64,000 nt of DNA from Phormidesmis sp. (GTDB lineage: Bacteria > Cyanobacteriota > Cyanobacteriia > Phormidesmidales > Phormidesmidaceae). The translations under genes and the position numbers were made by a program. The stretch covers positions 6,796-70,795 of the forward strand of contig JBAQZP010000023.1 of the NCBI GenBank assembly GCA_049791095.1. Reading direction: 5' to 3'. A model generated the notes under the pieces. The model was not told the DNA's origin. It ran no database searches and saw nothing but the letters and a program-made list of their open reading frames with translations. Shown here piece after piece: positions 6,504-15,022 of this stretch; the stretch's first letter is position 1, and each line of letters begins with the position of its first letter.

Positions 6504-7544
6504 ATGAAAGCGAGTCCTGAAAAAGCCGCTAAGCAAGCCGGACTTCGCTACGTCCATGATGAAATGCCTGGCATTCGACGCCAGCGCTGGGGGCAGGGCT
6601 TTAGCTATGTGTTGCCCAATGGCGATCGCCTTCAACCTTCTCCTGAACGCGATCGCATAGAAGCCCTAGCGATCCCCCCCAACTGGGAAGACGTCTGGAT
6701 CTGCCGCGATCCCAACGGTCACTTGCAAGCGACGGGCCGCGATGCCAAGGGCCGCAAACAATATCGCTACCATCCTGACTGGCGAAAGTTTCGCAATCTA
6801 CAGAAGTTCGATCGGATGGTGCCTTTCGGCCTGGCCTTACCCGAGCTGCGCCAGCAAACCCAGGCTGATTTGGCGCTACCCAAACTCTCTCGCAGAAAAG
6901 TCACCGCCGCCATTGTGCAGCTTTTAGATCGCACGCTGATTCGAGTCGGTAACGCTCAGTATGCCAAGCAAAACAAGTCGTATGGACTGACGACGCTGCG
7001 CGATCGCCATGTCGATATCAAAAAAGGACACATTGACTTTCGCTTTAAGGGCAAAAGCGGCGTAGAGCACTGCATTGGCATTGACGATCCTCAGCTTGCC
7101 AAGGTCGTTAAGCGCTGTCAGGATATTCCGGGCTATGAGCTGTTTCAGTACTATGACGAAGCGGGCGATCGCGAAACCGTAGAATCGGGCGACGTCAATG
7201 ACTACCTTAAAAGCGTCACTGGCGAGGACTTTACCGCCAAAGACTTTCGCACCTGGGCCGGAACCACCGTCGCCACTGATACGCTCGATCAGCTCGGGGA
7301 GTGGGAAAAGGAAACCGAGGCCAAGCGTAACGTTGTGACCGCCATCAAAGCCGCCGCCACTCAGCTCGGCAACCGACCCGCCACCTGCCGCAAATTTTAT
7401 GTCCATCCCATCGTGCCCGAAAACTACATCGCTGGGCAGCTCATCAAGCAGCTAAAGGAAGCTCAAAAAGCCGCTCAGTCGAACCCCACAGAGCAGCTAG
7501 AACTGTCTGAAAGCGCCGTGCTGACGCTGTTGAAATCGATCTGA
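6504..7544 (+). CDS. DNA topoisomerase IB (poxvirus-like bacterial type)
   Basis: N-terminus AGLRYVHDEMPGIRRQR.G.GF.Y, a central KGKSGVEH, and a C-terminal TCRKFYVHP carrying the catalytic Tyr context. 346 aa, as in bacterial TopIB. Confidence 0.85.
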   Translation: MKASPEKAAKQAGLRYVHDEMPGIRRQRWGQGFSYVLPNGDRLQPSPERDRIEALAIPPNWEDVWICRDPNGHLQATGRDAKGRKQYRYHPDWRKFRNLQKFDRMVPFGLALPELRQQTQADLALPKLSRRKVTAAIVQLLDRTLIRVGNAQYAKQNKSYGLTTLRDRHVDIKKGHIDFRFKGKSGVEHCIGIDDPQLAKVVKRCQDIPGYELFQYYDEAGDRETVESGDVNDYLKSVTGEDFTAKDFRTWAGTTVATDTLDQLGEWEKETEAKRNVVTAIKAAATQLGNRPATCRKFYVHPIVPENYIAGQLIKQLKEAQKAAQSNPTEQLELSESAVLTLLKSI

Positions 7545-7608: not shown

Positions 7609-7998
7609 CTAACCCAAAGTGCGCCAAACAATGACGCCTAAGCCAATAATAGAACCGAAATAAGCTAAAGATCTTAGCGTAGCAATCCCTGCAATGTAGG
7701 CAACACTGTGCAAAATCCGACAAGCCAGAATCGCGATCGCACTCCACCCGGTCACGCTATCCGTCTGCCCAGCTAGCTGGGCCACCAAAATCACCGCCGC
7801 AATCATCGCCAAATTATCGTGGTGATTTCGCTGTGCCCGATCGGCCCGGCCTACCCAAGCAGGGCCATCCACAGACTTTTCACGATTGCTGGCGGCCCAT
7901 GCCATGCCCGCCTTAGAAACGCGGCCTACCGCTGGAATATGGTTGAGTGGAATTGACCAAAGCGCCAACATTAAAAGGCAAAACAAATCAGTCGTCAT
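7609..7998 (-). CDS. MAPEG family membrane protein
   Basis: 129 aa with 3-4 TM segments. RADRAQRNHHDNL matches the MAPEG R..RA..N..E/D.. motif. Confidence 0.75.
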   Translation of the reverse strand: MTTDLFCLLMLALWSIPLNHIPAVGRVSKAGMAWAASNREKSVDGPAWVGRADRAQRNHHDNLAMIAAVILVAQLAGQTDSVTGWSAIAILACRILHSVAYIAGIATLRSLAYFGSIIGLGVIVWRTLG

Positions 7999-8179: not shown

Positions 8180-10498
8180 ATGACCGACTTCACCCAATTC
8201 TTTCGACGGCGGCAGGCCAGTCAACAACCGCTGCCATTAAGTCCTGTCTCTGCAAGTGATATTCCTGAAAGTAATGTTCCTGAAAGTAATGCGCCCGCAA
8301 AGAGTGAGTGCGATCGCCCCCAGCAAGACAAACTGCGATCGCCGCTCAGGCTTATCGCCAGAGCTTTTGCAGATACCAGCATTAGCCACAAGCTAGACAT
8401 TGGCTTCGGCGTTTTAGTCGGAATGACTTTTTTAGTCGTGGGCCGCAATTACTGGGGTAGCCTGTTTGCCATTGACAGCATCCAGCAAACGCAGGCAGTC
8501 AGGCTACCGACCGTGCTCGCCTCTAGCCTGGCCCAAGAAGACCTGTTGAGAATGTCCTCTCACATTCGCGGCTACTTAATCACCCGCAAATCTTTCTATC
8601 GCAGCCGCTATCACCACTCTCGTCAGGACTTTGAGAAGCAGCTAGCGGCCATGCTGACGCTGATCGAAACCAACCATACAGATGCCGCCAACTCTGCCGA
8701 GGCTCTTCAGTTAGCCCAGCTAAAGCATCTATACGAGCAGTGGAAAACATTGCCCGAAGATTTGTTTGCGCTGAGCGATCAGCCCTTAAAAAGTCAGCCT
8801 GCTATCAAACGCTTTCAAGAAGAGCAGGCGGTTTACCTGATGGCGGTGCAGTCAAACACACAAAAAATTATCGACCTTCAAGCCGGGCGATCGCCCTCCC
8901 TCCAAACTATTCAACAGCTCAAAACGCTCACCGCTTTTCAAACCACCTTTGCCCTCATGGGCGCTTCTCTCAGGGCCTACTTGCTCACCCAGGATGCCAA
9001 CTTCAAGTTTGAATATGTCGGGCTTCGGATCGAGAACGATCAGCAGTGGAAAACCATTCAGGCCAGTAGTCAGGCCACAGAGCTAACCTTACAGCAATCG
9101 CAAATGCTCTCTACCGTTGAAGAGAACCGCCAGCAGTTTTTGGATCTTGCCCCCGAGCTATTGAGACTGACGGCAGGCGATCGCTACCGGGAAGACCTGT
9201 TTATTTTTAATACACAGGCCGAACCCCTCGCCGCAAAAATGCTGGCCTTGCTCGACGAGATTGTCAACAGTCAGCAAAAGCTGCTGTCAGACGAGCTAGC
9301 CGCTAGCCAAAAAGGGCTGGCAACCGCCCAGTGGCAAACCTTGCTCGGCAGCTTTTTAGCCCTGGCGATCGCCCTAGAACTTGCCCTATTGCTGCGTCGC
9401 AAAATTGCTGGCCCGATCGTCCGCCTCACCGCCGCCACCGCCAGCGTCATTGCCGGAGACCTCAATGCCAAAGCAACCGTCGAATCTAAAGATGAAATTG
9501 GCAAGCTGGCCCATACCTTCAACCGTATGACCGAGCATCTCAAAGCCTCGCACCAGGCGTCCGAGAGCGACAACGCAACCCTCGAAGCGCAAAAGGCCCA
9601 GCTAGAGTCTAAAAACATTCAAATTAACCTCACTTTAGAAGCGTTGCAAAACACTCAAGCGCAGCTCGTTCAAACCGAAAAAATGTCTAGCCTGGGGCAA
9701 ATGGTGGCTGGCATCGCCCACGAAATCAACAATCCGGTGAGCTTCATTCACGGCAACTTACCCCATATGCAAAGCTACACCCGCGATTTGATTGCCCTCG
9801 TCAAACTTTACCAGCAGCACCATCCTCAAACCCATCCCGACATCCTCGACAAAAGCGAGGACATCGACCTTGATTTTTTGTTAGAAGATATTCCCCGTGC
9901 GTTCGACTCTATGCAAACCGGCACCCAGCGAATCCGCGATATTGTGCTGTCTTTGCGCAACTTTTCGCGGCTAGATGAGTCAGCTATGAAATGCGCTGCT
10001 CTGGAAGAAGGATTAGACAGTACGCTGCTGATTTTACAGAACCGGCTCAGACTTCAAGCTTTTCGTCCTGCGATCGCCATCTTCAAAAACTATGGCAATT
10101 TGCCCCCGATTGAATGCTATCCAGGGCAGCTAAACCAGGTCTTTCTCAACATACTCTCCAACGCCATTGACGCCATCGACAGCGCTAGCCAGCAGCAAAA
10201 CGCCCCCAATGGCATGGACAACTGGAGTCCACAAATTAAGCTTTGCACGGCAGTTATAGACAATCAGGCGATGATTTCGATTGCCGATAATGGCAAAGGC
10301 ATCGCCCTGGACATTCAATCTCGAATTTTTGATCCTTTCTTCACCACCAAACCCATTGGTACCGGTACCGGCATGGGACTCTCGATTAGCCACAAAATTG
10401 TGGTAGAGCAGCACAAAGGCGACTTGAGCTGTGTATCGGTGCCGGACGAGGGGGCAACTTTTTATATCAGTCTGCCGCGTCAGCAAACAACGGCATAG
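8180..10498 (+). CDS. sensor histidine kinase (CHASE3-like periplasmic region, HAMP, HisKA, HATPase_c)
   Basis: TM helix, then a CHASE3-like segment (RMSSHIRGYLITRKSFYRSRY), a second TM helix and HAMP (IAGPIVRLT...DEIGKLAHTFNRM). A coiled coil follows, then the H-box MVAGIAHEINNP and the N/G1/G2 boxes (NAIDAI, DNGKGI, GTGTGMGLSIS). Confidence 0.9.
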   Translation: MTDFTQFFRRRQASQQPLPLSPVSASDIPESNVPESNAPAKSECDRPQQDKLRSPLRLIARAFADTSISHKLDIGFGVLVGMTFLVVGRNYWGSLFAIDSIQQTQAVRLPTVLASSLAQEDLLRMSSHIRGYLITRKSFYRSRYHHSRQDFEKQLAAMLTLIETNHTDAANSAEALQLAQLKHLYEQWKTLPEDLFALSDQPLKSQPAIKRFQEEQAVYLMAVQSNTQKIIDLQAGRSPSLQTIQQLKTLTAFQTTFALMGASLRAYLLTQDANFKFEYVGLRIENDQQWKTIQASSQATELTLQQSQMLSTVEENRQQFLDLAPELLRLTAGDRYREDLFIFNTQAEPLAAKMLALLDEIVNSQQKLLSDELAASQKGLATAQWQTLLGSFLALAIALELALLLRRKIAGPIVRLTAATASVIAGDLNAKATVESKDEIGKLAHTFNRMTEHLKASHQASESDNATLEAQKAQLESKNIQINLTLEALQNTQAQLVQTEKMSSLGQMVAGIAHEINNPVSFIHGNLPHMQSYTRDLIALVKLYQQHHPQTHPDILDKSEDIDLDFLLEDIPRAFDSMQTGTQRIRDIVLSLRNFSRLDESAMKCAALEEGLDSTLLILQNRLRLQAFRPAIAIFKNYGNLPPIECYPGQLNQVFLNILSNAIDAIDSASQQQNAPNGMDNWSPQIKLCTAVIDNQAMISIADNGKGIALDIQSRIFDPFFTTKPIGTGTGMGLSISHKIVVEQHKGDLSCVSVPDEGATFYISLPRQQTTA

Positions 10499-10559
10499 GT
10501 TGAGCGATAGAGTACTTTGGAAAGTCCTTTTTGAAGTGCTGACGTCAGTACCGATCGCT

Positions 10560-13088
10560 ATGGATGCCGCTCATGTGCAATGGTTACAGGCCCATACTAT
10601 CTTTCGCGATTTGCCGCTGAGGCTGGTAGAGGCGATCGCACCCTGCCTCAGCGAAATTCACTTTGAAGCCAACCGCCGCCTGGTGCTAGAAGACACCGCG
10701 CCCGACGCGCTCTACATCCTCAAATCGGGCCAGTTAGAGAGCTACCGCACTCGCCGCGCCAGTGCTGCCAAAGTCACGCTGTTAGAGTCTGGCGCAGTCA
10801 TTCATTTGCAAGAATTGCTGCTAGATAGTGACGCCACCCAAACGGTCGTTTCTCTCACGGACTGCGAAATTTGGCGGCTAGAAAAAACCAGATTTCAGCA
10901 GCTCGCTGAAGAATTCCCGGCGCTAAACCAAGAGCTTTCCAAGCTTCTGGCCAGCGCCCTAGAAGAAGCCTCTGACCAGTTGGCCTACGAGCAAGAGCGG
11001 CAGCAGGCATTGCGTCCCTATTTGGTCACCCGTGTACAACGCGGCGTCGTGGGCAGCAGTCGCTATGCCGTGCGCCTGCGCAAAAGTATTCGTACCGCGA
11101 CTAGTTCGCAGCCTAAAGACGGGCGGCGAGCACCGCTGCTGATATTTGGCGAGCCGGGGCTAGAAAAAGATAATTTGGCGGCGCTGATTCATTTTGGCTC
11201 TAGCAATAAGGCTGCGCCGATGATTCGGGTGAATTGCGATGGGGTGCGATCGCAAGATCTTTTCGGCAAAGGCGACAGCCAACCCGGCCTCCTAGACTGG
11301 CTACAGTCCGGCACCCTTTTGCTCAACAACATTCAAGACCTGGATGAATCACTCAAAGCGCCGATTGTGCAGCTTGTGCAAACCGGACAGTATCAGCCCA
11401 TTAGCCGTGAAGGTGAAGCGCCGCCCCTGCGCAAATCGAACGCCTGGATACTGATGGTTTCTGAAAAAGCCATGCCCGAGTTCACCCGCTGCGCCGCCCA
11501 ACAGATCAAAGTTCCGCCGCTGCGCGTTCGTAAAGCCGATATTGAAGCGGAGGTCACCTACTTTGCTCAGCTCTTATGCCGCAAGCAAAAGATTCGCAAA
11601 CGAAAGCTTGCCCCTGAAGCGCTGCGGCGGCTGCAAAGCTACGACTTTCCTGGCAACCTGACTGAGCTGGAGAATATGGTGGAGCGGGCCGTCAGTCAGT
11701 CGGGCGATCGCCCCGTCCTGACCGAAGAAGTCTTTTGGGCCGAAGAAAAACAAAGTCGCCGCTTTCGCTTTAACTTGCTCAAGGGCTATCCCAAACTGCG
11801 AGCGTTTTTACTCAGCCCCTGGTGGCCCGATCGCATCAACTATGGCTTCACGCTGTGGTTCTATCCCATCGTCGTCGCGGTGCTGATGTGGGGGCCACAA
11901 ACGAGAGATCAAAACTTTGCGCTCAACTTCTTTTGGGCCTGGTGGTGGCCGCTAATTCTGATTGGCTTTCCCTTTGTGGGGCGGCTGTGGTGCGCGGTTT
12001 GTCCTTTCATGATTTACGGCGAGGTGGCGCAATTTCTCTCGCTCAAAGTTTGGCCGCGTCAGCTTCAGGGCTGGCCAAGGCAGTGGGCAGAGCGCTGGGG
12101 CGGCTGGCTTCTCTACGGCGGCTTTGCCCTAATTTTGCTGTGGGAAGAGCTTTGGAATTTAGAAAATACGGCCTATCTGTCTGGCTGGCTGCTGATCATC
12201 ATTACGGCGGGCGCGGTGATTTGTTCTGTTCTATTCGAGCGCCGCTTTTGGTGCCGGTATCTGTGTCCGATTGGTGGCATGAACGGCCTATTTGCCAAAC
12301 TTTCGATGGTGGAGCTGCGAGCCCAACAGGGCATTTGTTCGGCGACCTGCACGACTTACCACTGCTATAAAGGTGGCCCTGCCGAAGGGGAGGGACAACA
12401 GACGAATGGTTGCCCGGTATATTCTCATCCGGCGCAACTGACGGACAATCGCAACTGCGTACTGTGCATGACCTGCCTGAAAGCTTGCCCGCATCAGTCT
12501 GTTGCTTTAAATCTGCGACCGCCGGGCATAGGGCTGTGGACTGCTCATAGCGCTACCGGGTACGAGGTGGCTCTGCTATTGCTATTGCTAGGGGCGGTAT
12601 TTTTGCACCGACTGCCGCAGCTAACAACGTTGTTTTTGGGCGATAGCCGGATTTTGGAAAGTTGGGGAGGTCATGCGATCGCCTCCCTCATAGCCCTATT
12701 TCTGCCGGGTGCGATCGCCCTGATCATCAACCCAATCCGCACCCAACTTCAGGGCACTGGCTCTAATCGCACCTTTTTAGAGCTGGCCTACGGCTATCTT
12801 CCCCTCGTTCTATTTGCCAGCCTGGCCCACTACCTTTTATTGGGATTATCCGAAGCGGGACAAATTATCCCCGTATTCCAGTCAACCTGGGGTCTGAGCA
12901 CCACTGGCTACAGCGCCACTGCTCATCCAGCCGTGATTGCCTTCCTTCAGGGAACTGCTCTGATTTTTGGCGCTTTCCTCAGCATTGTGTTGACCCAAAA
13001 AATTGGCCGTCAGTCGTGGCTCAAGCTGATTCCACAGCATGGCGTTACGCTGGGATTCACGCTGCTCCTGTGGCAGCTAATCCTGTAA
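10560..13088 (+). CDS. multidomain protein: cNMP-binding domain + degenerate sigma54-type AAA+ domain + NapH-like 4Fe-4S polyferredoxin membrane domain
   Basis: ATG 10560 (MDAAHVQWLQ) was chosen because the tracked start at 10431 overlaps the kinase. CAP_ED-like N-terminus (FRDLP...LYILKSGQLE). Sigma54-interaction-like core: GEPGLEKDNLAALIH, GTLLLNNIQDL, PPLRVRKADIE, YDFPGNLTELENMVERAV. Multi-TM C-terminus with RLWCAVCPF, RRFWCRYLCPIGG and CVLCMTCLKACP. Confidence 0.8.
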   Translation: MDAAHVQWLQAHTIFRDLPLRLVEAIAPCLSEIHFEANRRLVLEDTAPDALYILKSGQLESYRTRRASAAKVTLLESGAVIHLQELLLDSDATQTVVSLTDCEIWRLEKTRFQQLAEEFPALNQELSKLLASALEEASDQLAYEQERQQALRPYLVTRVQRGVVGSSRYAVRLRKSIRTATSSQPKDGRRAPLLIFGEPGLEKDNLAALIHFGSSNKAAPMIRVNCDGVRSQDLFGKGDSQPGLLDWLQSGTLLLNNIQDLDESLKAPIVQLVQTGQYQPISREGEAPPLRKSNAWILMVSEKAMPEFTRCAAQQIKVPPLRVRKADIEAEVTYFAQLLCRKQKIRKRKLAPEALRRLQSYDFPGNLTELENMVERAVSQSGDRPVLTEEVFWAEEKQSRRFRFNLLKGYPKLRAFLLSPWWPDRINYGFTLWFYPIVVAVLMWGPQTRDQNFALNFFWAWWWPLILIGFPFVGRLWCAVCPFMIYGEVAQFLSLKVWPRQLQGWPRQWAERWGGWLLYGGFALILLWEELWNLENTAYLSGWLLIIITAGAVICSVLFERRFWCRYLCPIGGMNGLFAKLSMVELRAQQGICSATCTTYHCYKGGPAEGEGQQTNGCPVYSHPAQLTDNRNCVLCMTCLKACPHQSVALNLRPPGIGLWTAHSATGYEVALLLLLLGAVFLHRLPQLTTLFLGDSRILESWGGHAIASLIALFLPGAIALIINPIRTQLQGTGSNRTFLELAYGYLPLVLFASLAHYLLLGLSEAGQIIPVFQSTWGLSTTGYSATAHPAVIAFLQGTALIFGAFLSIVLTQKIGRQSWLKLIPQHGVTLGFTLLLWQLIL

Positions 13089-14326: not shown

Positions 14327-15022
14327 TTACTCTTTTGAACCTTCTGCTTTTTGTAAACTGTCTACAGCACTACCTGCATTATTAGATTCTTTTAGCTTGG
14401 CGGGCGCGCTTTTGATTTTGTCGGCTTTCTTTTGAAGTTTTTCAGAGCCACCATCCATTAGAACCGCATCACGTACGACAGATTCGGGCTCAGCGCGAGT
14501 CTCTTCTTCCTCAGGGAAAGACGTCACCATTTCGTAAGTGCTGGGTAAATCTTCTTCAATCGCTTCTGCTTGCTTGCGAGTCTCTTCGGGAACAACGCCT
14601 AGCAATGCATCAAAGTCGGCAACGAACTCGCGGTACTGGAAAATAGCGTTGTTATAGTTGCGTTCTTGCGATGCCGCATCGATCTTTTGCAAGTGATCGG
14701 AAAGTTCTTCAGCCAGTATTTTTGCTTTCTTTTGGTCGTCGGGTAAAAGCTGATTGCTGAGACGCACCATTTCAGAGCGAAGCTGGCCCAACGGCCCGTG
14801 GGTAAAGTTGTCTACGTTGACCCAGTTGTCTTTTTCGATGTAGCGTTCTAGCTCGGGCAGGCGATCGCGCGTTTGCTCAATCCGGGCCACATAGGTTTGC
14901 AATTGAGAAATTTTTTCGGGGGTGTAGGTCGGGGCTACAGCCGCAGGGCCACCGCTACAGCTTACTAAGAAAGTTGCGATCGCAGCCAGCAAAACGCCGA
15001 CCACTGCTCGATAATGTCTCAT
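14327..15022 (-). CDS. psbQ: photosystem II lipoprotein CyanoQ (PsbQ) with C-terminal extension
   Basis: Lipobox LVSCSG. The four-helix PsbQ-like core includes W.NV.NFTHGPLGQLRSEM...IDAASQERNYNNAIFQYREFVADFDA. An extra C-terminal tail of about 80 aa, rich in acidic residues and Lys, follows. Confidence 0.7.
   Translation of the reverse strand: MRHYRAVVGVLLAAIATFLVSCSGGPAAVAPTYTPEKISQLQTYVARIEQTRDRLPELERYIEKDNWVNVDNFTHGPLGQLRSEMVRLSNQLLPDDQKKAKILAEELSDHLQKIDAASQERNYNNAIFQYREFVADFDALLGVVPEETRKQAEAIEEDLPSTYEMVTSFPEEEETRAEPESVVRDAVLMDGGSEKLQKKADKIKSAPAKLKESNNAGSAVDSLQKAEGSKE

What the first reader, a model, noticed from the sequence alone, without database searches (positions are those of the whole stretch)
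8180..13088. Candidate undescribed signalling unit: orphan histidine kinase followed by a cNMP / pseudo-AAA+ / polyferredoxin membrane fusion protein
One uninterrupted ORF (10560-13088) joins three modules. (i) A CAP-type cyclic-nucleotide-binding domain. (ii) A sigma54-interaction-type AAA+ core with degenerate motifs: Walker A reads GEPGLEKD (11148-11171; GxxGxGK becomes GxxGxEK) and Walker B reads LLLNN (NN at 11325-11330 in place of DE). I see no GAFTGA loop, while the R-finger region PPLRVRKADIE and the sensor-II-like FPGNLTELEN are kept. (iii) In place of a C-terminal HTH there is a multi-TM domain with two CxxCP-type motifs (RLWCAVCPF about 11981-12010; RRFWCRYLCPIGG about 12241-12280) and a CxxCxxCxxxCP ferredoxin motif (about 12455-12493), as in NapH/MauN-type quinol-linked polyferredoxins. 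Cyanobacteria are generally held to lack sigma54, so the AAA+ module cannot act as a classical enhancer-binding protein. The gene starts 62 nt after a CHASE3/HAMP histidine kinase that has no adjacent response regulator. My hypothesis is a membrane redox (quinone or Fe-S) sensor or transducer gated by cAMP/cGMP and possibly coupled to the kinase.
Basis: partly seen in the sequence, partly recalled or inferred. Interest (0 to 1): 0.7.

Follow-up and report, generated by a model that had tools for sequence, protein, structure and literature searches.

The report
Pseudo-ATPase fused to membrane polyferredoxin
The gene is real and belongs to a large, unstudied family of cyanobacterial and green-algal membrane iron-sulfur proteins that carry a disabled enhancer-binding-type ATPase and a degenerate cyclic-nucleotide domain, while the neighbouring histidine kinase looks like a lineage-specific insertion, not a partner.

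Summary
One 842-aa ORF (10560-13088) joins a cNMP-type domain, a sigma54-type AAA+ core and lid, and a NapH-like multi-TM polyferredoxin. Every quoted motif sits at the stated coordinates.

1. This is a standard member of a big family: 392 50%-identity clusters at E<=1e-30, most cyanobacterial orders, many green algae and a distant bacterial branch. Databases annotate it by domain names only. I found no experimental paper.
2. GAFTGA and Walker B DE are missing family-wide (0/302, against 77/86 in true EBPs), so it is not a sigma54 activator anywhere.
3. In the whole cyanobacterial/algal clade the phosphate-binding cassette is degenerate (FGE to IHL, Arg to Ala/Thr). Canonical cAMP/cGMP gating is therefore doubtful here. 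The distant branch keeps a canonical cassette.
4. The kinase sits directly upstream in only 8 of 81 related loci. There it follows two DctP genes (seven of the eight; the eighth contig is cut) as a cassette inserted between a MAPEG gene and the fusion gene. The fusion has no receiver domain.

The most conserved part is the membrane Fe-S module, with 12 invariant cysteines and no PDB fold match. My best reading is a regulated membrane electron-transfer protein whose non-hydrolysing AAA+ module acts as an assembly or allosteric switch.

The parts
10560..13088 (+). Fusion gene (842 aa plus stop): CNB-like domain, sigma54-type pseudo-AAA+, NapH-like membrane polyferredoxin
   Evidence: ORF list. 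Pfam/NCBIfam. Full-length homologues. AF2 model, mean pLDDT 85.6.
10656..10913 (+). Cyclic-nucleotide-binding-fold domain (residues 33-118) with a degenerate phosphate-binding cassette. Cassette is 10791-10850; H82-L83 replace Gly-Glu and A92 replaces Arg.
   Evidence: PF00027, 51.2 bits. HMMER alignment to PKG/PKA CNB domains. Family columns.
10917..11021 (+). Long linker helix (residues 120-154) between the CNB-like domain and the AAA+ core
   Evidence: AF2 secondary structure, H120-154.
11049..11513 (+). sigma54-type AAA+ alpha/beta core (residues 164-318). Walker A is GEPGLEKD (11148-11171). Walker B is GTLLLNN (11310-11330). The L1/GAFTGA loop is deleted.
   Evidence: PF00158/PF14532. HMMER alignments to VpsR, FlrC and PspF. 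Foldseek TM 0.82 to NtrC1. Motif counts.
11523..11738 (+). AAA+ lid (residues 322-393) with the PPLRVRKADI motif, the FPGNLTEL motif and the invariant sensor-II Arg R376
   Evidence: PF25601, 51.9 bits. Invariant columns R322, D327, N366, E369, R376.
11820..12239 (+). Four-helix membrane module (TM1-TM4, residues 421-560). The first Cys motif, C478-x2-C481-P (11991-12005), lies at the cytoplasmic end of TM2.
   Evidence: Hydropathy. AF2 helices. Fer4_5. C478/C481 are invariant in 95 diverse representatives.
12252..12269 (+). Second Cys motif, C565-x3-C569-P, just after TM4
   Evidence: Invariant in 95 representatives.
12282..12524 (+). Cytoplasmic ferredoxin-like domain (residues 575-655) with eight invariant Cys: C593, C597, C602, C618 and C633, C636, C639, C643. 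This is enough for two [4Fe-4S] clusters.
   Evidence: Fer4 family hits. NapH/MauN match. Invariant Cys.
12549..13085 (+). C-terminal extension of about five further TM helices (residues 664-842), absent from NapH
   Evidence: Hydropathy. AF2 helices 667-683, 702-730, 739-776, 790-816 and 824-841.
8180..10498 (+). CHASE3/4HB_MCP-HAMP-HisKA-HATPase_c histidine kinase. Neighbour only; judged not part of the unit.
   Evidence: Pfam. Directly upstream in 8 of 81 related loci. Part of a DctP-DctP-HK cassette in relatives.
7609..7998 (-). MAPEG-family gene. In close relatives without the kinase it is the immediate divergent neighbour of the fusion gene, which marks the kinase as an insertion.
   Evidence: Pfam. 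tblastn positions in L005, L006, L008, L009, L011, L014, L021-L023, L025, L026.

Best explanation
The gene encodes a regulated membrane electron-transfer protein. The effector is the C-terminal NapH-type module. It consists of four TM helices with a CxxCP and a Cx3CP motif at the cytoplasmic face, a cytoplasmic domain with two [4Fe-4S] sites, and about five extra TM helices. I infer that it moves electrons between a cytoplasmic or stromal donor and the quinone pool or a trans-membrane acceptor.

The N-terminal half follows enhancer-binding-protein logic without sigma54. An input domain (here a CNB-fold domain that has lost the cNMP contacts, so its ligand is unknown) controls the assembly state of a sigma54-type AAA+ domain. 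That AAA+ domain may still bind nucleotide but cannot hydrolyse it, so it would work as an oligomerisation or allosteric switch for the membrane module.

Shown: the architecture, the motif states, the conservation pattern and the lack of a conserved partner. Inferred: the electron-transfer role, the direction of control and the oligomerisation. The adjacent kinase is not part of the unit.
For: - **Selection is strongest on the membrane Fe-S module.** Mean column identity is 0.82-0.95 there, against 0.54-0.79 for the CNB and AAA+ parts. Twelve Cys are invariant across 95 representatives at 27-60% identity.
- **The closest sequence family for residues 472-649 is NapH/MauN** (E 6e-15). [quoted passage not shown]
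- **Predicted topology puts both Cys motifs and the Fe-S domain on the cytoplasmic side**, next to the AAA+ module.
- **The AAA+/polyferredoxin core is constant while the input modules vary.** Inputs seen: cNMP, cNMP+GAF, FHA+cNMP, AIM24+cNMP, HisKA+REC, tandem AAA+, or none. This is the modular pattern of EBP regulation.
- **The hydrolysis and sigma54-contact residues are lost family-wide.** GAFTGA-like strings occur in 0/302 and Walker B DE in 0/302, against 77/86 for each in true EBPs. The R-finger position is not conserved.
- **P-loop residues G197, G200 and K203 and the sensor-II Arg R376 are invariant or nearly so**. The fold matches NtrC1 with TM 0.82 and rmsd 2.1 A.
- **No HTH or other output domain is present**.
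- **No gene neighbour is conserved in more than about 21% of 81 loci**, so the protein looks self-contained.
Against: - No biochemical or genetic data exist for any member that I could find.
- No redox partner is identified.
- The NapH/MauN score is far below the family cut-off (55.5 against 213 bits).
- The role of the CX3CP motifs is unknown even in NapH, NosR and RdhC (PMC5928378).
- Walker A position 202 is E, N or G in cyanobacteria, so nucleotide binding may also be lost.
- The direction of information flow could be the reverse, with the Fe-S module as sensor.
- The full-length model has pTM 0.57, so the domain arrangement is not defined.
Confidence: 0.45

Rival explanations
1. Membrane redox sensor or transducer. 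The polyferredoxin module senses the redox state of the quinone pool or ferredoxin, and the pseudo-AAA+ ring is the output that binds or sequesters an unknown cytoplasmic partner.
For: - Fe-S domains are common redox sensors.
- The AAA+ surface motifs stay conserved without catalysis (R322, D327, N366, E369, R376 invariant).
- NosR/NirI-type polyferredoxins were first proposed to be regulators (PMC5928378).
- The gene stands alone in most genomes, as sensors often do.
Against: - No output domain and no conserved partner gene.
- The variable modules lie N-terminal to the AAA+ domain, as EBP inputs do. The protein would then have inputs at both ends.
- The L1 loop that EBPs use to touch their target is deleted.
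Confidence: 0.25
2. Cofactor or metal reductase, or an assembly factor for photosynthetic or respiratory complexes. This would be in the manner of the CcoG/FixG-type membrane polyferredoxins (comparison from my own knowledge, not tested here), which would explain retention in cyanobacteria and green-algal plastids.
For: - The algal homologues form one group nested inside the cyanobacterial clade.
- Several carry Ala/Arg-rich N-terminal extensions.
- Both Cys motifs and the Fe-S clusters face the cytoplasm or stroma.
- In Spirulina the gene follows a PetC-like Rieske gene and a rhodanese, near cytochrome bd oxidase genes.
Against: - No CcoG/FixG model appears among the NCBIfam hits.
- There is no conserved linkage to metal transporters or assembly genes.
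- The Spirulina context is not seen elsewhere.
Confidence: 0.12
3. One reading: a two-gene signalling unit in which the CHASE3/HAMP kinase and cAMP/cGMP together gate the membrane redox protein.
For: - Same strand, 61-nt gap, and no terminator-like site between the genes.
- The adjacency is kept in eight related loci.
- One distant family member carries HisKA+REC as its input (P0204), so phosphorelay control of this core exists somewhere.
Against: - The kinase is absent upstream in 73 of 81 loci, including relatives at 80-82% identity. No locus below 73% identity has it.
- In relatives the kinase comes with two DctP genes as a cassette inserted next to the MAPEG gene.
- The window protein has no REC domain.
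- The PBC Gly-Glu and Arg are replaced in the whole clade.
Confidence: 0.05
4. Membrane-tethered, sigma70-dependent atypical enhancer-binding protein that regulates transcription, like VpsR, NtrX or TyrR.
For: - The best PDB sequence match is VpsR. The best fold matches include NtrX and VpsR.
- VpsR is an atypical EBP that likewise lacks GAFTGA and has a non-consensus Walker B (PMC6158489).
Against: - No HTH or any DNA-binding domain. About 440 C-terminal residues are membrane-embedded.
- Homologues are nuclear-encoded in green algae.
Confidence: 0.03

Closest known systems
NapH/MauN family membrane ferredoxins (quinol dehydrogenase subunit NapH)
   Same: - TM helices carrying two Cys-x(n)-Cys-Pro motifs at the cytoplasmic face, followed by a cytoplasmic two-cluster ferredoxin domain.
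- Best sequence-family match for residues 472-649.
   Different: - Scores far below the family cut-offs.
- The first motif is CxxCP, not CX3CP.
- The first Fe-S motif has unusual spacing (Cx3Cx4C...x15CP).
- About five extra C-terminal TM helices.
- About 400 residues of regulatory domains fused N-terminally.
- No nap or NapG genes nearby.
NosR / NirI and RdhC (PceC) membrane proteins
   Same: They share the four-helix, two-Cys-motif membrane module. NosR also has the two 4Fe-4S motifs. Both were once annotated as regulators and are now viewed as electron-transfer proteins (PMC5928378).
   Different: - They carry an extracytoplasmic FMN-binding domain and sit in nos or rdh operons.
- The window protein has neither.
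- The NosR model match is marginal (E 7e-4, 18 bits).
Atypical (sigma54-independent) enhancer-binding proteins: VpsR, NtrX, TyrR, HupR
   Same: - sigma54-type AAA+ fold without GAFTGA and with a non-consensus Walker B (PMC6158489).
- VpsR is the top PDB sequence hit. NtrX is the top fold hit.
   Different: - Those proteins keep a C-terminal HTH and act on DNA with sigma70-RNAP.
- Here the HTH is replaced by a membrane polyferredoxin.
Classical bacterial enhancer-binding proteins (NtrC1, PspF, FlrC)
   Same: - AAA+ core and lid fold (TM 0.74-0.82).
- PPLRxR, GNxxEL and sensor-II Arg motifs.
- N-terminal input-domain logic.
   Different: - GAFTGA loop deleted.
- Walker B DE becomes NN.
- Walker A Gly becomes Glu.
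- R-finger position not conserved.
- No HTH.
CNB domains of PKA/PKG regulatory subunits and CRP
   Same: Beta-barrel CNB fold. PF00027 scores above threshold. Best PDB matches are PKA-R and PKG.
   Different: The phosphate-binding cassette residues that contact the cyclic phosphate and ribose are replaced in this clade. The distant bacterial branch keeps FGE...PRSA.

Membership tests
Bacterial enhancer-binding proteins (sigma54 activators) | GAFTGA (L1) loop that contacts sigma54 | tested here: not met
   The loop falls in a gap in HMMER alignments to FlrC and PspF. GAFTGA-like strings occur in 0/302 family members against 77/86 true EBPs.
Bacterial enhancer-binding proteins (sigma54 activators) | Walker B hhhhDE | tested here: not met
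   GTLLLNN in the window. NN in all of the commonest Walker B variants among the 121 close sequences. DE in 0/302 family members.
Bacterial enhancer-binding proteins (sigma54 activators) | Walker A GxxGxGK | tested here: not met
   GEPGLEKD. Position 202 is E, N or G in cyanobacteria, and Lys203 is kept. The distant branch keeps GxxGTGK.
Bacterial enhancer-binding proteins (sigma54 activators) | Trans-acting arginine finger (PspF R168 equivalent) | tested here: inconclusive
   R310 aligns with PspF R168, but the column is K/N/R/Q/S in close relatives and E/A/S/N in distant ones. The PspF R162 equivalent is P306.
Bacterial enhancer-binding proteins (sigma54 activators) | AAA+ core and lid fold of the sigma54-activator type | tested here: met
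   PF00158 and PF25601 score above threshold. Foldseek to NtrC1: TM(target) 0.82, rmsd 2.1 A.
Bacterial enhancer-binding proteins (sigma54 activators) | C-terminal DNA-binding HTH | tested here: not met
   No HTH_8 or other HTH hit. The C-terminal 440 residues are TM helices plus a ferredoxin domain.
Bacterial enhancer-binding proteins (sigma54 activators) | rpoN (sigma54) present in the genome | not testable with these tools
   Only 64 kb are available, and they contain no RpoN-box match. The literature reports rpoN as absent from, or rare in, cyanobacteria (PMC3162934, PMC12316311).
NapH/MauN ferredoxin-type proteins | Score at or above the curated family cut-off | tested here: not met
   TIGR02163: 55.5 bits against a cut-off of 213. 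PRK09477: 39.2 against 234.
NapH/MauN ferredoxin-type proteins | Four TM helices with two CX3CP motifs | tested here: inconclusive
   Four helices, TM1-TM4. The second motif is C565x3C569P, but the first is C478x2C481P. Both are invariant.
NapH/MauN ferredoxin-type proteins | Two 4Fe-4S binding motifs after the membrane module | tested here: met
   Eight invariant Cys. One motif is the canonical CxxCxxCxxxCP (633-644). The other has non-canonical spacing (593, 597, 602, 618-P). Cluster binding itself was not tested.
NapH/MauN ferredoxin-type proteins | Genomic association with napG/napA or mau genes | tested here: not met
   The neighbours are MAPEG, topoisomerase IB, SDR, DAO and PsbQ-like genes. 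No conserved neighbour appears in 81 loci.
Cyclic-nucleotide-binding (CNB) domains that bind cAMP/cGMP | CNB fold / PF00027 | tested here: met
   51.2 bits against a cut-off of 27.5. PKA-R/PKG matches at E 1e-8. AF2 beta-barrel with pLDDT about 90.
Cyclic-nucleotide-binding (CNB) domains that bind cAMP/cGMP | Phosphate-binding cassette Gly-Glu and Arg-[ST]-Ala | tested here: not met
   F-G-E becomes I81-H82-L83 and R becomes A92 in the alignment to PKG. The clade consensus is LHL...P[TA][ED]Q. The distant branch has FGEMALLTGEPRSASV.
Two-component pair (kinase plus cognate partner) | Receiver (REC) domain in the partner | tested here: not met
   No Response_reg hit in the fusion protein.
Two-component pair (kinase plus cognate partner) | Conserved adjacency across related genomes | tested here: not met
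   The kinase is directly upstream in 8 of 81 loci, all at 73% identity or more. In seven of them it follows two DctP genes.

The most novel reading that the evidence does not exclude
The family is a plastid-inherited electron-transfer component of photosynthetic membranes found across cyanobacteria and green algae. It would be, for example, a ferredoxin- or quinone-pool-linked trans-membrane reductase. It would also represent a new output class for enhancer-binding-type AAA+ domains, in which a non-hydrolysing ring gates a membrane Fe-S enzyme instead of remodelling sigma54-RNA polymerase. Its membrane module would be a fold with no solved structure.
Probability: 0.2. Interest if true: 0.8.

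Novelty: new variant of a known kind. Interest (0 to 1): 0.5.

Why it matters
- It shows what became of the sigma54-type AAA+ domain in a phylum that essentially lacks sigma54. The domain survives as a catalytically dead module welded to a NapH-like polyferredoxin.
- The family is kept in most cyanobacterial orders, and the algal copies branch inside the cyanobacterial clade. That pattern is typical of proteins tied to photosynthetic membranes, yet no function is known.
- The membrane module gives a confident model (pLDDT 90) with no PDB counterpart. A structure would also inform NapH, NosR and RdhC, whose CX3CP motifs remain unexplained.
- On the practical side, current annotations such as 'sigma 54-interacting transcriptional regulator', 'nitrogen assimilation regulatory protein' and 'cyclic nucleotide-binding protein' are likely misleading for this clade.

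Tried and rejected
- **Conserved operon partner.** I clustered all ORFs from 81 genome loci. Nothing apart from the gene itself is shared by more than 17 loci. Further contexts in Nostocales, Spirulina, Synechococcus FACHB-909 and two distant-branch contigs also show no common partner.
- **Kinase co-occurrence.** Rejected as a functional link.
- **Fold search of the membrane domain against the PDB.** No match (best E 0.28, TM below 0.2). The full-length search returned only AAA+ hits.
- **Literature.** Ten searches, covering domain combinations, slr0593, slr1529, Chlamydomonas and Sigma54_activat in cyanobacteria, found no study of the family.
- **Synechocystis slr1529.** It is annotated 'nitrogen assimilation regulatory protein', the same label as the Volvox homologue, so it may be the orthologue. 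A knockout shows metabolome shifts at 72 h (PMC5318462). I could not obtain its sequence, so this stays an unverified lead.
- **Taxon names for the distant branch.** None were on record. Its non-cyanobacterial origin is inferred from neighbouring sigma54-type response regulators.
- **Model coordinates.** They were not available to scripts, so I could not measure Cys-Cys geometry.
Full report
**1. What is in the sequence**

The + strand carries a 772-aa ORF (8180-10498) followed, 61 nt later, by an 842-aa ORF (ATG 10560 to stop 13088). The longest version of the second frame starts at GTG 10431 and would overlap the first gene. Homologues, however, begin at the MDAAHVQW form.

Pfam places four domain families on the second protein, all above gathering thresholds:
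- cNMP_binding at residues 33-118
- Sigma54_activat at 175-284
- AAA_lid_14 at 322-393
- two Fer4_5 stretches, plus a C-terminal 4Fe-4S motif

NCBIfam gives sub-threshold matches to many sigma54 activators for residues ~110-400 and to NapH/MauN for 472-649. The first protein is a 4HB_MCP/CHASE3-HAMP-HisKA-HATPase_c kinase. The surrounding genes encode an SDR, a bacterial topoisomerase IB, a MAPEG protein, a DAO-type oxidoreductase, a PsbQ-like protein and a DUF362 protein. None is a response regulator.

**2. The fusion is a family, not a one-off**

- A word-indexed search found more than 100 full-length proteins at 59-100% identity with the same four Pfam domains. They are annotated only as 'cyclic nucleotide-binding domain-containing protein', 'sigma 54-interacting transcriptional regulator' or '4Fe-4S binding protein'.
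- An exhaustive HMMER search of 1.84 billion cluster representatives gave 392 clusters at E<=1e-30. Many are full-length at 27-33% identity.
- 234 stretches in the collection of GTDB species-representative genomes encode a relative. The nearest are Leptolyngbya sp. BC1307 and Phormidesmis MAGs at 82-83%.
- A search seeded with a Trebouxia homologue showed the family in Nostoc, Fischerella, Scytonema, Microcoleus, Moorena and Laspinema. It also found many green algae: Trebouxia, Coccomyxa, Micractinium, Monoraphidium, Gonium, Volvox, Chlamydomonas incerta, Edaphochlamys, Klebsormidium and Picocystis.
- In a neighbour-joining tree of the AAA+/membrane core the algal proteins form one group nested inside the cyanobacterial clade (no bootstrap). 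Several algal proteins have Ala/Arg-rich N-terminal extensions. This fits inheritance through the plastid ancestor.
- A distant branch (the P0163 group) lies on contigs that also encode classical REC-AAA+-HTH sigma54 activators. I infer that it is non-cyanobacterial.

**3. The AAA+ module**

HMMER alignments to VpsR, FlrC and PspF put the GAFTGA loop in a gap of the window protein. Walker A is GEPGLEKD and Walker B is GTLLLNN.

| Feature | Fusion family | True EBPs from the same search |
|---|---|---|
| GAFTGA-like string | 0/302 | 77/86 |
| Walker B DE | 0/302 | 77/86 |

The distant branch keeps GxxGTGK but has KN or KD at Walker B. The cyanobacterial and algal proteins have GEPGL[E/N/G]K[D/S] and mostly NN in cyanobacteria or [T/K/N]N in algae.

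The residue aligned with the PspF arginine finger R168 is R310, and that column is not conserved. The R162 equivalent is P306.

By contrast, G197, G200, R322, D327, N366, E369 and the sensor-II Arg R376 are invariant. K203 is at least 90% conserved across 24-83% identity. The AF2 model superposes on NtrC1 with TM 0.82 and rmsd 2.1 A.

My reading is a folded sigma54-type AAA+ domain that has lost hydrolysis and sigma54 contact everywhere in the family. It may keep nucleotide binding. The loss also occurs in hosts that have sigma54 activators, so the absence of sigma54 from cyanobacteria (PMC3162934; rare exceptions in PMC12316311) agrees with the degeneracy but does not cause it.

**4. The cNMP-type domain**

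The fold is supported by PF00027, by PKA-R and PKG matches at E 1e-8, and by a confident AF2 barrel. The residues that define cyclic-nucleotide binding are gone, though.

- In the alignment to PKG, F-G-E corresponds to I81-H82-L83. The cassette Arg corresponds to A92.
- This state is conserved. The clade consensus is LHL...P[T/A][E/D]Q in 120 close relatives, and similar in Nostocales and algae.
- In the distant branch many members read FGEMALLTGEPRSASV, a canonical cassette.

So cAMP/cGMP control is plausible for the distant branch and was probably ancestral. For the window protein it is not supported. The domain is conserved enough to do something, such as binding another ligand or acting as a structural latch.

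**5. The membrane module**

This is the best-conserved part, with mean column identity 0.82-0.95. Twelve Cys are invariant in 95 diverse representatives: C478, C481, C565, C569, C593, C597, C602, C618, C633, C636, C639 and C643.

Hydropathy and the AF2 models suggest the following layout:
- TM1-TM2, ending in C478xxC481P
- a cytoplasmic helix
- TM3-TM4, followed by C565x3C569P
- a roughly 90-residue cytoplasmic ferredoxin-like domain with eight Cys
- five more TM helices

The N-terminus would be inside and the C-terminus outside. This topology is an inference from hydropathy, the positive-inside rule and the model's secondary structure.

The four-helix, two-Cys-motif, two-cluster arrangement is that of NapH and NosR. 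In NapH the membrane part is proposed to oxidise quinol, and the Cys motifs are essential but unexplained (PMC5928378). The membrane-only model is confident (pLDDT 90.1, pTM 0.90) yet has no PDB fold match (best E 0.28).

**6. The kinase**

Among 81 related genome loci the kinase is directly upstream and co-oriented in eight. All eight are close relatives (73-83% identity). Other relatives at 80-82% identity instead have the MAPEG gene immediately upstream and divergent, as do many others.

In seven of the eight loci the kinase is preceded by two paralogous DctP-type solute-binding genes. The eighth contig is cut at that point, and the window has no DctP gene. The simplest history is that a DctP-DctP-kinase cassette was inserted between MAPEG and the fusion gene in one sub-lineage, and the DctP genes were later lost in the window's genome.

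The fusion protein has no receiver domain. Clustering all flanking ORFs shows that no neighbour is shared by more than 17 of 81 loci. Contexts in Nostocales, Spirulina, Synechococcus and the distant branch differ again. The short gap, and the absence of a terminator-like site between the two genes, allow co-transcription here.

**7. How it most likely works**

Across the family the AAA+/polyferredoxin core is constant while the N-terminal modules vary. Those seen are cNMP, cNMP+GAF, FHA+cNMP, AIM24+cNMP, HisKA+REC, a second AAA+ module, or nothing. That is the design of enhancer-binding proteins, where an input domain controls AAA+ assembly. Here the DNA-binding output is replaced by a membrane Fe-S module.

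I therefore favour a regulated membrane electron-transfer protein (confidence 0.45). The NapH-like module would carry electrons between a cytoplasmic or stromal donor and the quinone pool or a trans-membrane acceptor. The non-hydrolysing AAA+ domain would set the oligomeric or allosteric state under control of the CNB-like domain.

The rivals are:
- a redox sensor whose AAA+ ring is the output (0.25)
- a cofactor or metal reductase, or an assembly factor for photosynthetic complexes (0.12)
- a membrane-tethered atypical EBP acting on transcription (0.03)

**8. Novelty and score**

The sequence family is already in the databases, so the window holds a typical member, not a discovery in itself. 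What appears unreported is the set of findings reached here:
- the family-wide pseudo-enzyme state of the AAA+ domain
- the clade-specific loss of the cNMP cassette
- the algal distribution
- the lack of any structural precedent for the membrane module

I could find no functional study in ten searches. This is limited to open-access full text and bioRxiv. I rate it a new variant of known kinds (atypical EBP and NapH-type polyferredoxin), with interest 0.5. The architecture is intriguing and broadly conserved, but the proposed two-gene signalling unit and the cNMP gating do not stand.

Noticed in passing
L013:1091-5888 (also L015, L017, L020, L024, L027, L042): In relatives the CHASE3/HAMP kinase is preceded by two paralogous DctP-type TRAP solute-binding protein genes. 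This suggests a solute-sensing DctP-DctP-kinase cassette. The window keeps only the kinase.
   Followed up: partly
Proteins P0122, P0124, P0416-P0442 (green algae): Nuclear-encoded homologues occur in many green algae, including Volvox, Gonium, Chlamydomonas incerta, Coccomyxa, Trebouxia, Klebsormidium and Picocystis. They form one group nested inside the cyanobacterial clade in an NJ tree. The volvocine sequences checked (e.g. P0123, P0432, P0433) lack the CNB domain, and some algal proteins carry transit-peptide-like N-termini.
   Followed up: partly
Proteins P0204, P0162, P0165, P0180, P0241, P0197, P0038: Other family members swap or add input modules on the same AAA+/polyferredoxin core. 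Seen were HisKA+REC, cNMP+GAF, FHA+cNMP and AIM24+cNMP. A cyanobacterial Trichocoleus protein has a tandem AAA+ duplication.
   Followed up: partly
window 11757-13085 (residues 400-842): The membrane-domain AF2 model is confident (pLDDT 90.1, pTM 0.90) but has no significant Foldseek match in the PDB. The NapH/NosR-type membrane polyferredoxin fold appears to be structurally unsolved.
   Followed up: yes
L089:4460-9679 (Spirulina major): Here the fusion gene follows, on the same strand, a YgaP-like TM protein, a PetC-like Rieske protein and a rhodanese. A PALP enzyme gene lies downstream, and cytochrome bd oxidase genes lie just upstream on the other strand. A distant-branch contig (L083) also has rhodanese and DoxX genes nearby. 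The pattern is not seen in other loci.
   Followed up: no
window 6504-7544 (+): A bacterial type IB topoisomerase (Top1B_N_bact plus Topoisom_I).
   Followed up: no
window 14327-15022 (-): A PsbQ-like (CyanoQ-type) gene lies two genes downstream of the fusion gene. Together with the closest homologues, this identifies the window as a Phormidesmis/Leptolyngbya-like cyanobacterium.
   Followed up: no
Synechocystis slr1529 (literature only): It is annotated 'nitrogen assimilation regulatory protein', the same label as the Volvox homologue. It has an antisense RNA that changes with it under iron limitation (PMC3516471), and a knockout shows metabolome changes at 72 h (PMC5318462). It may be the model-organism orthologue, but I could not verify the sequence.
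   Followed up: partly
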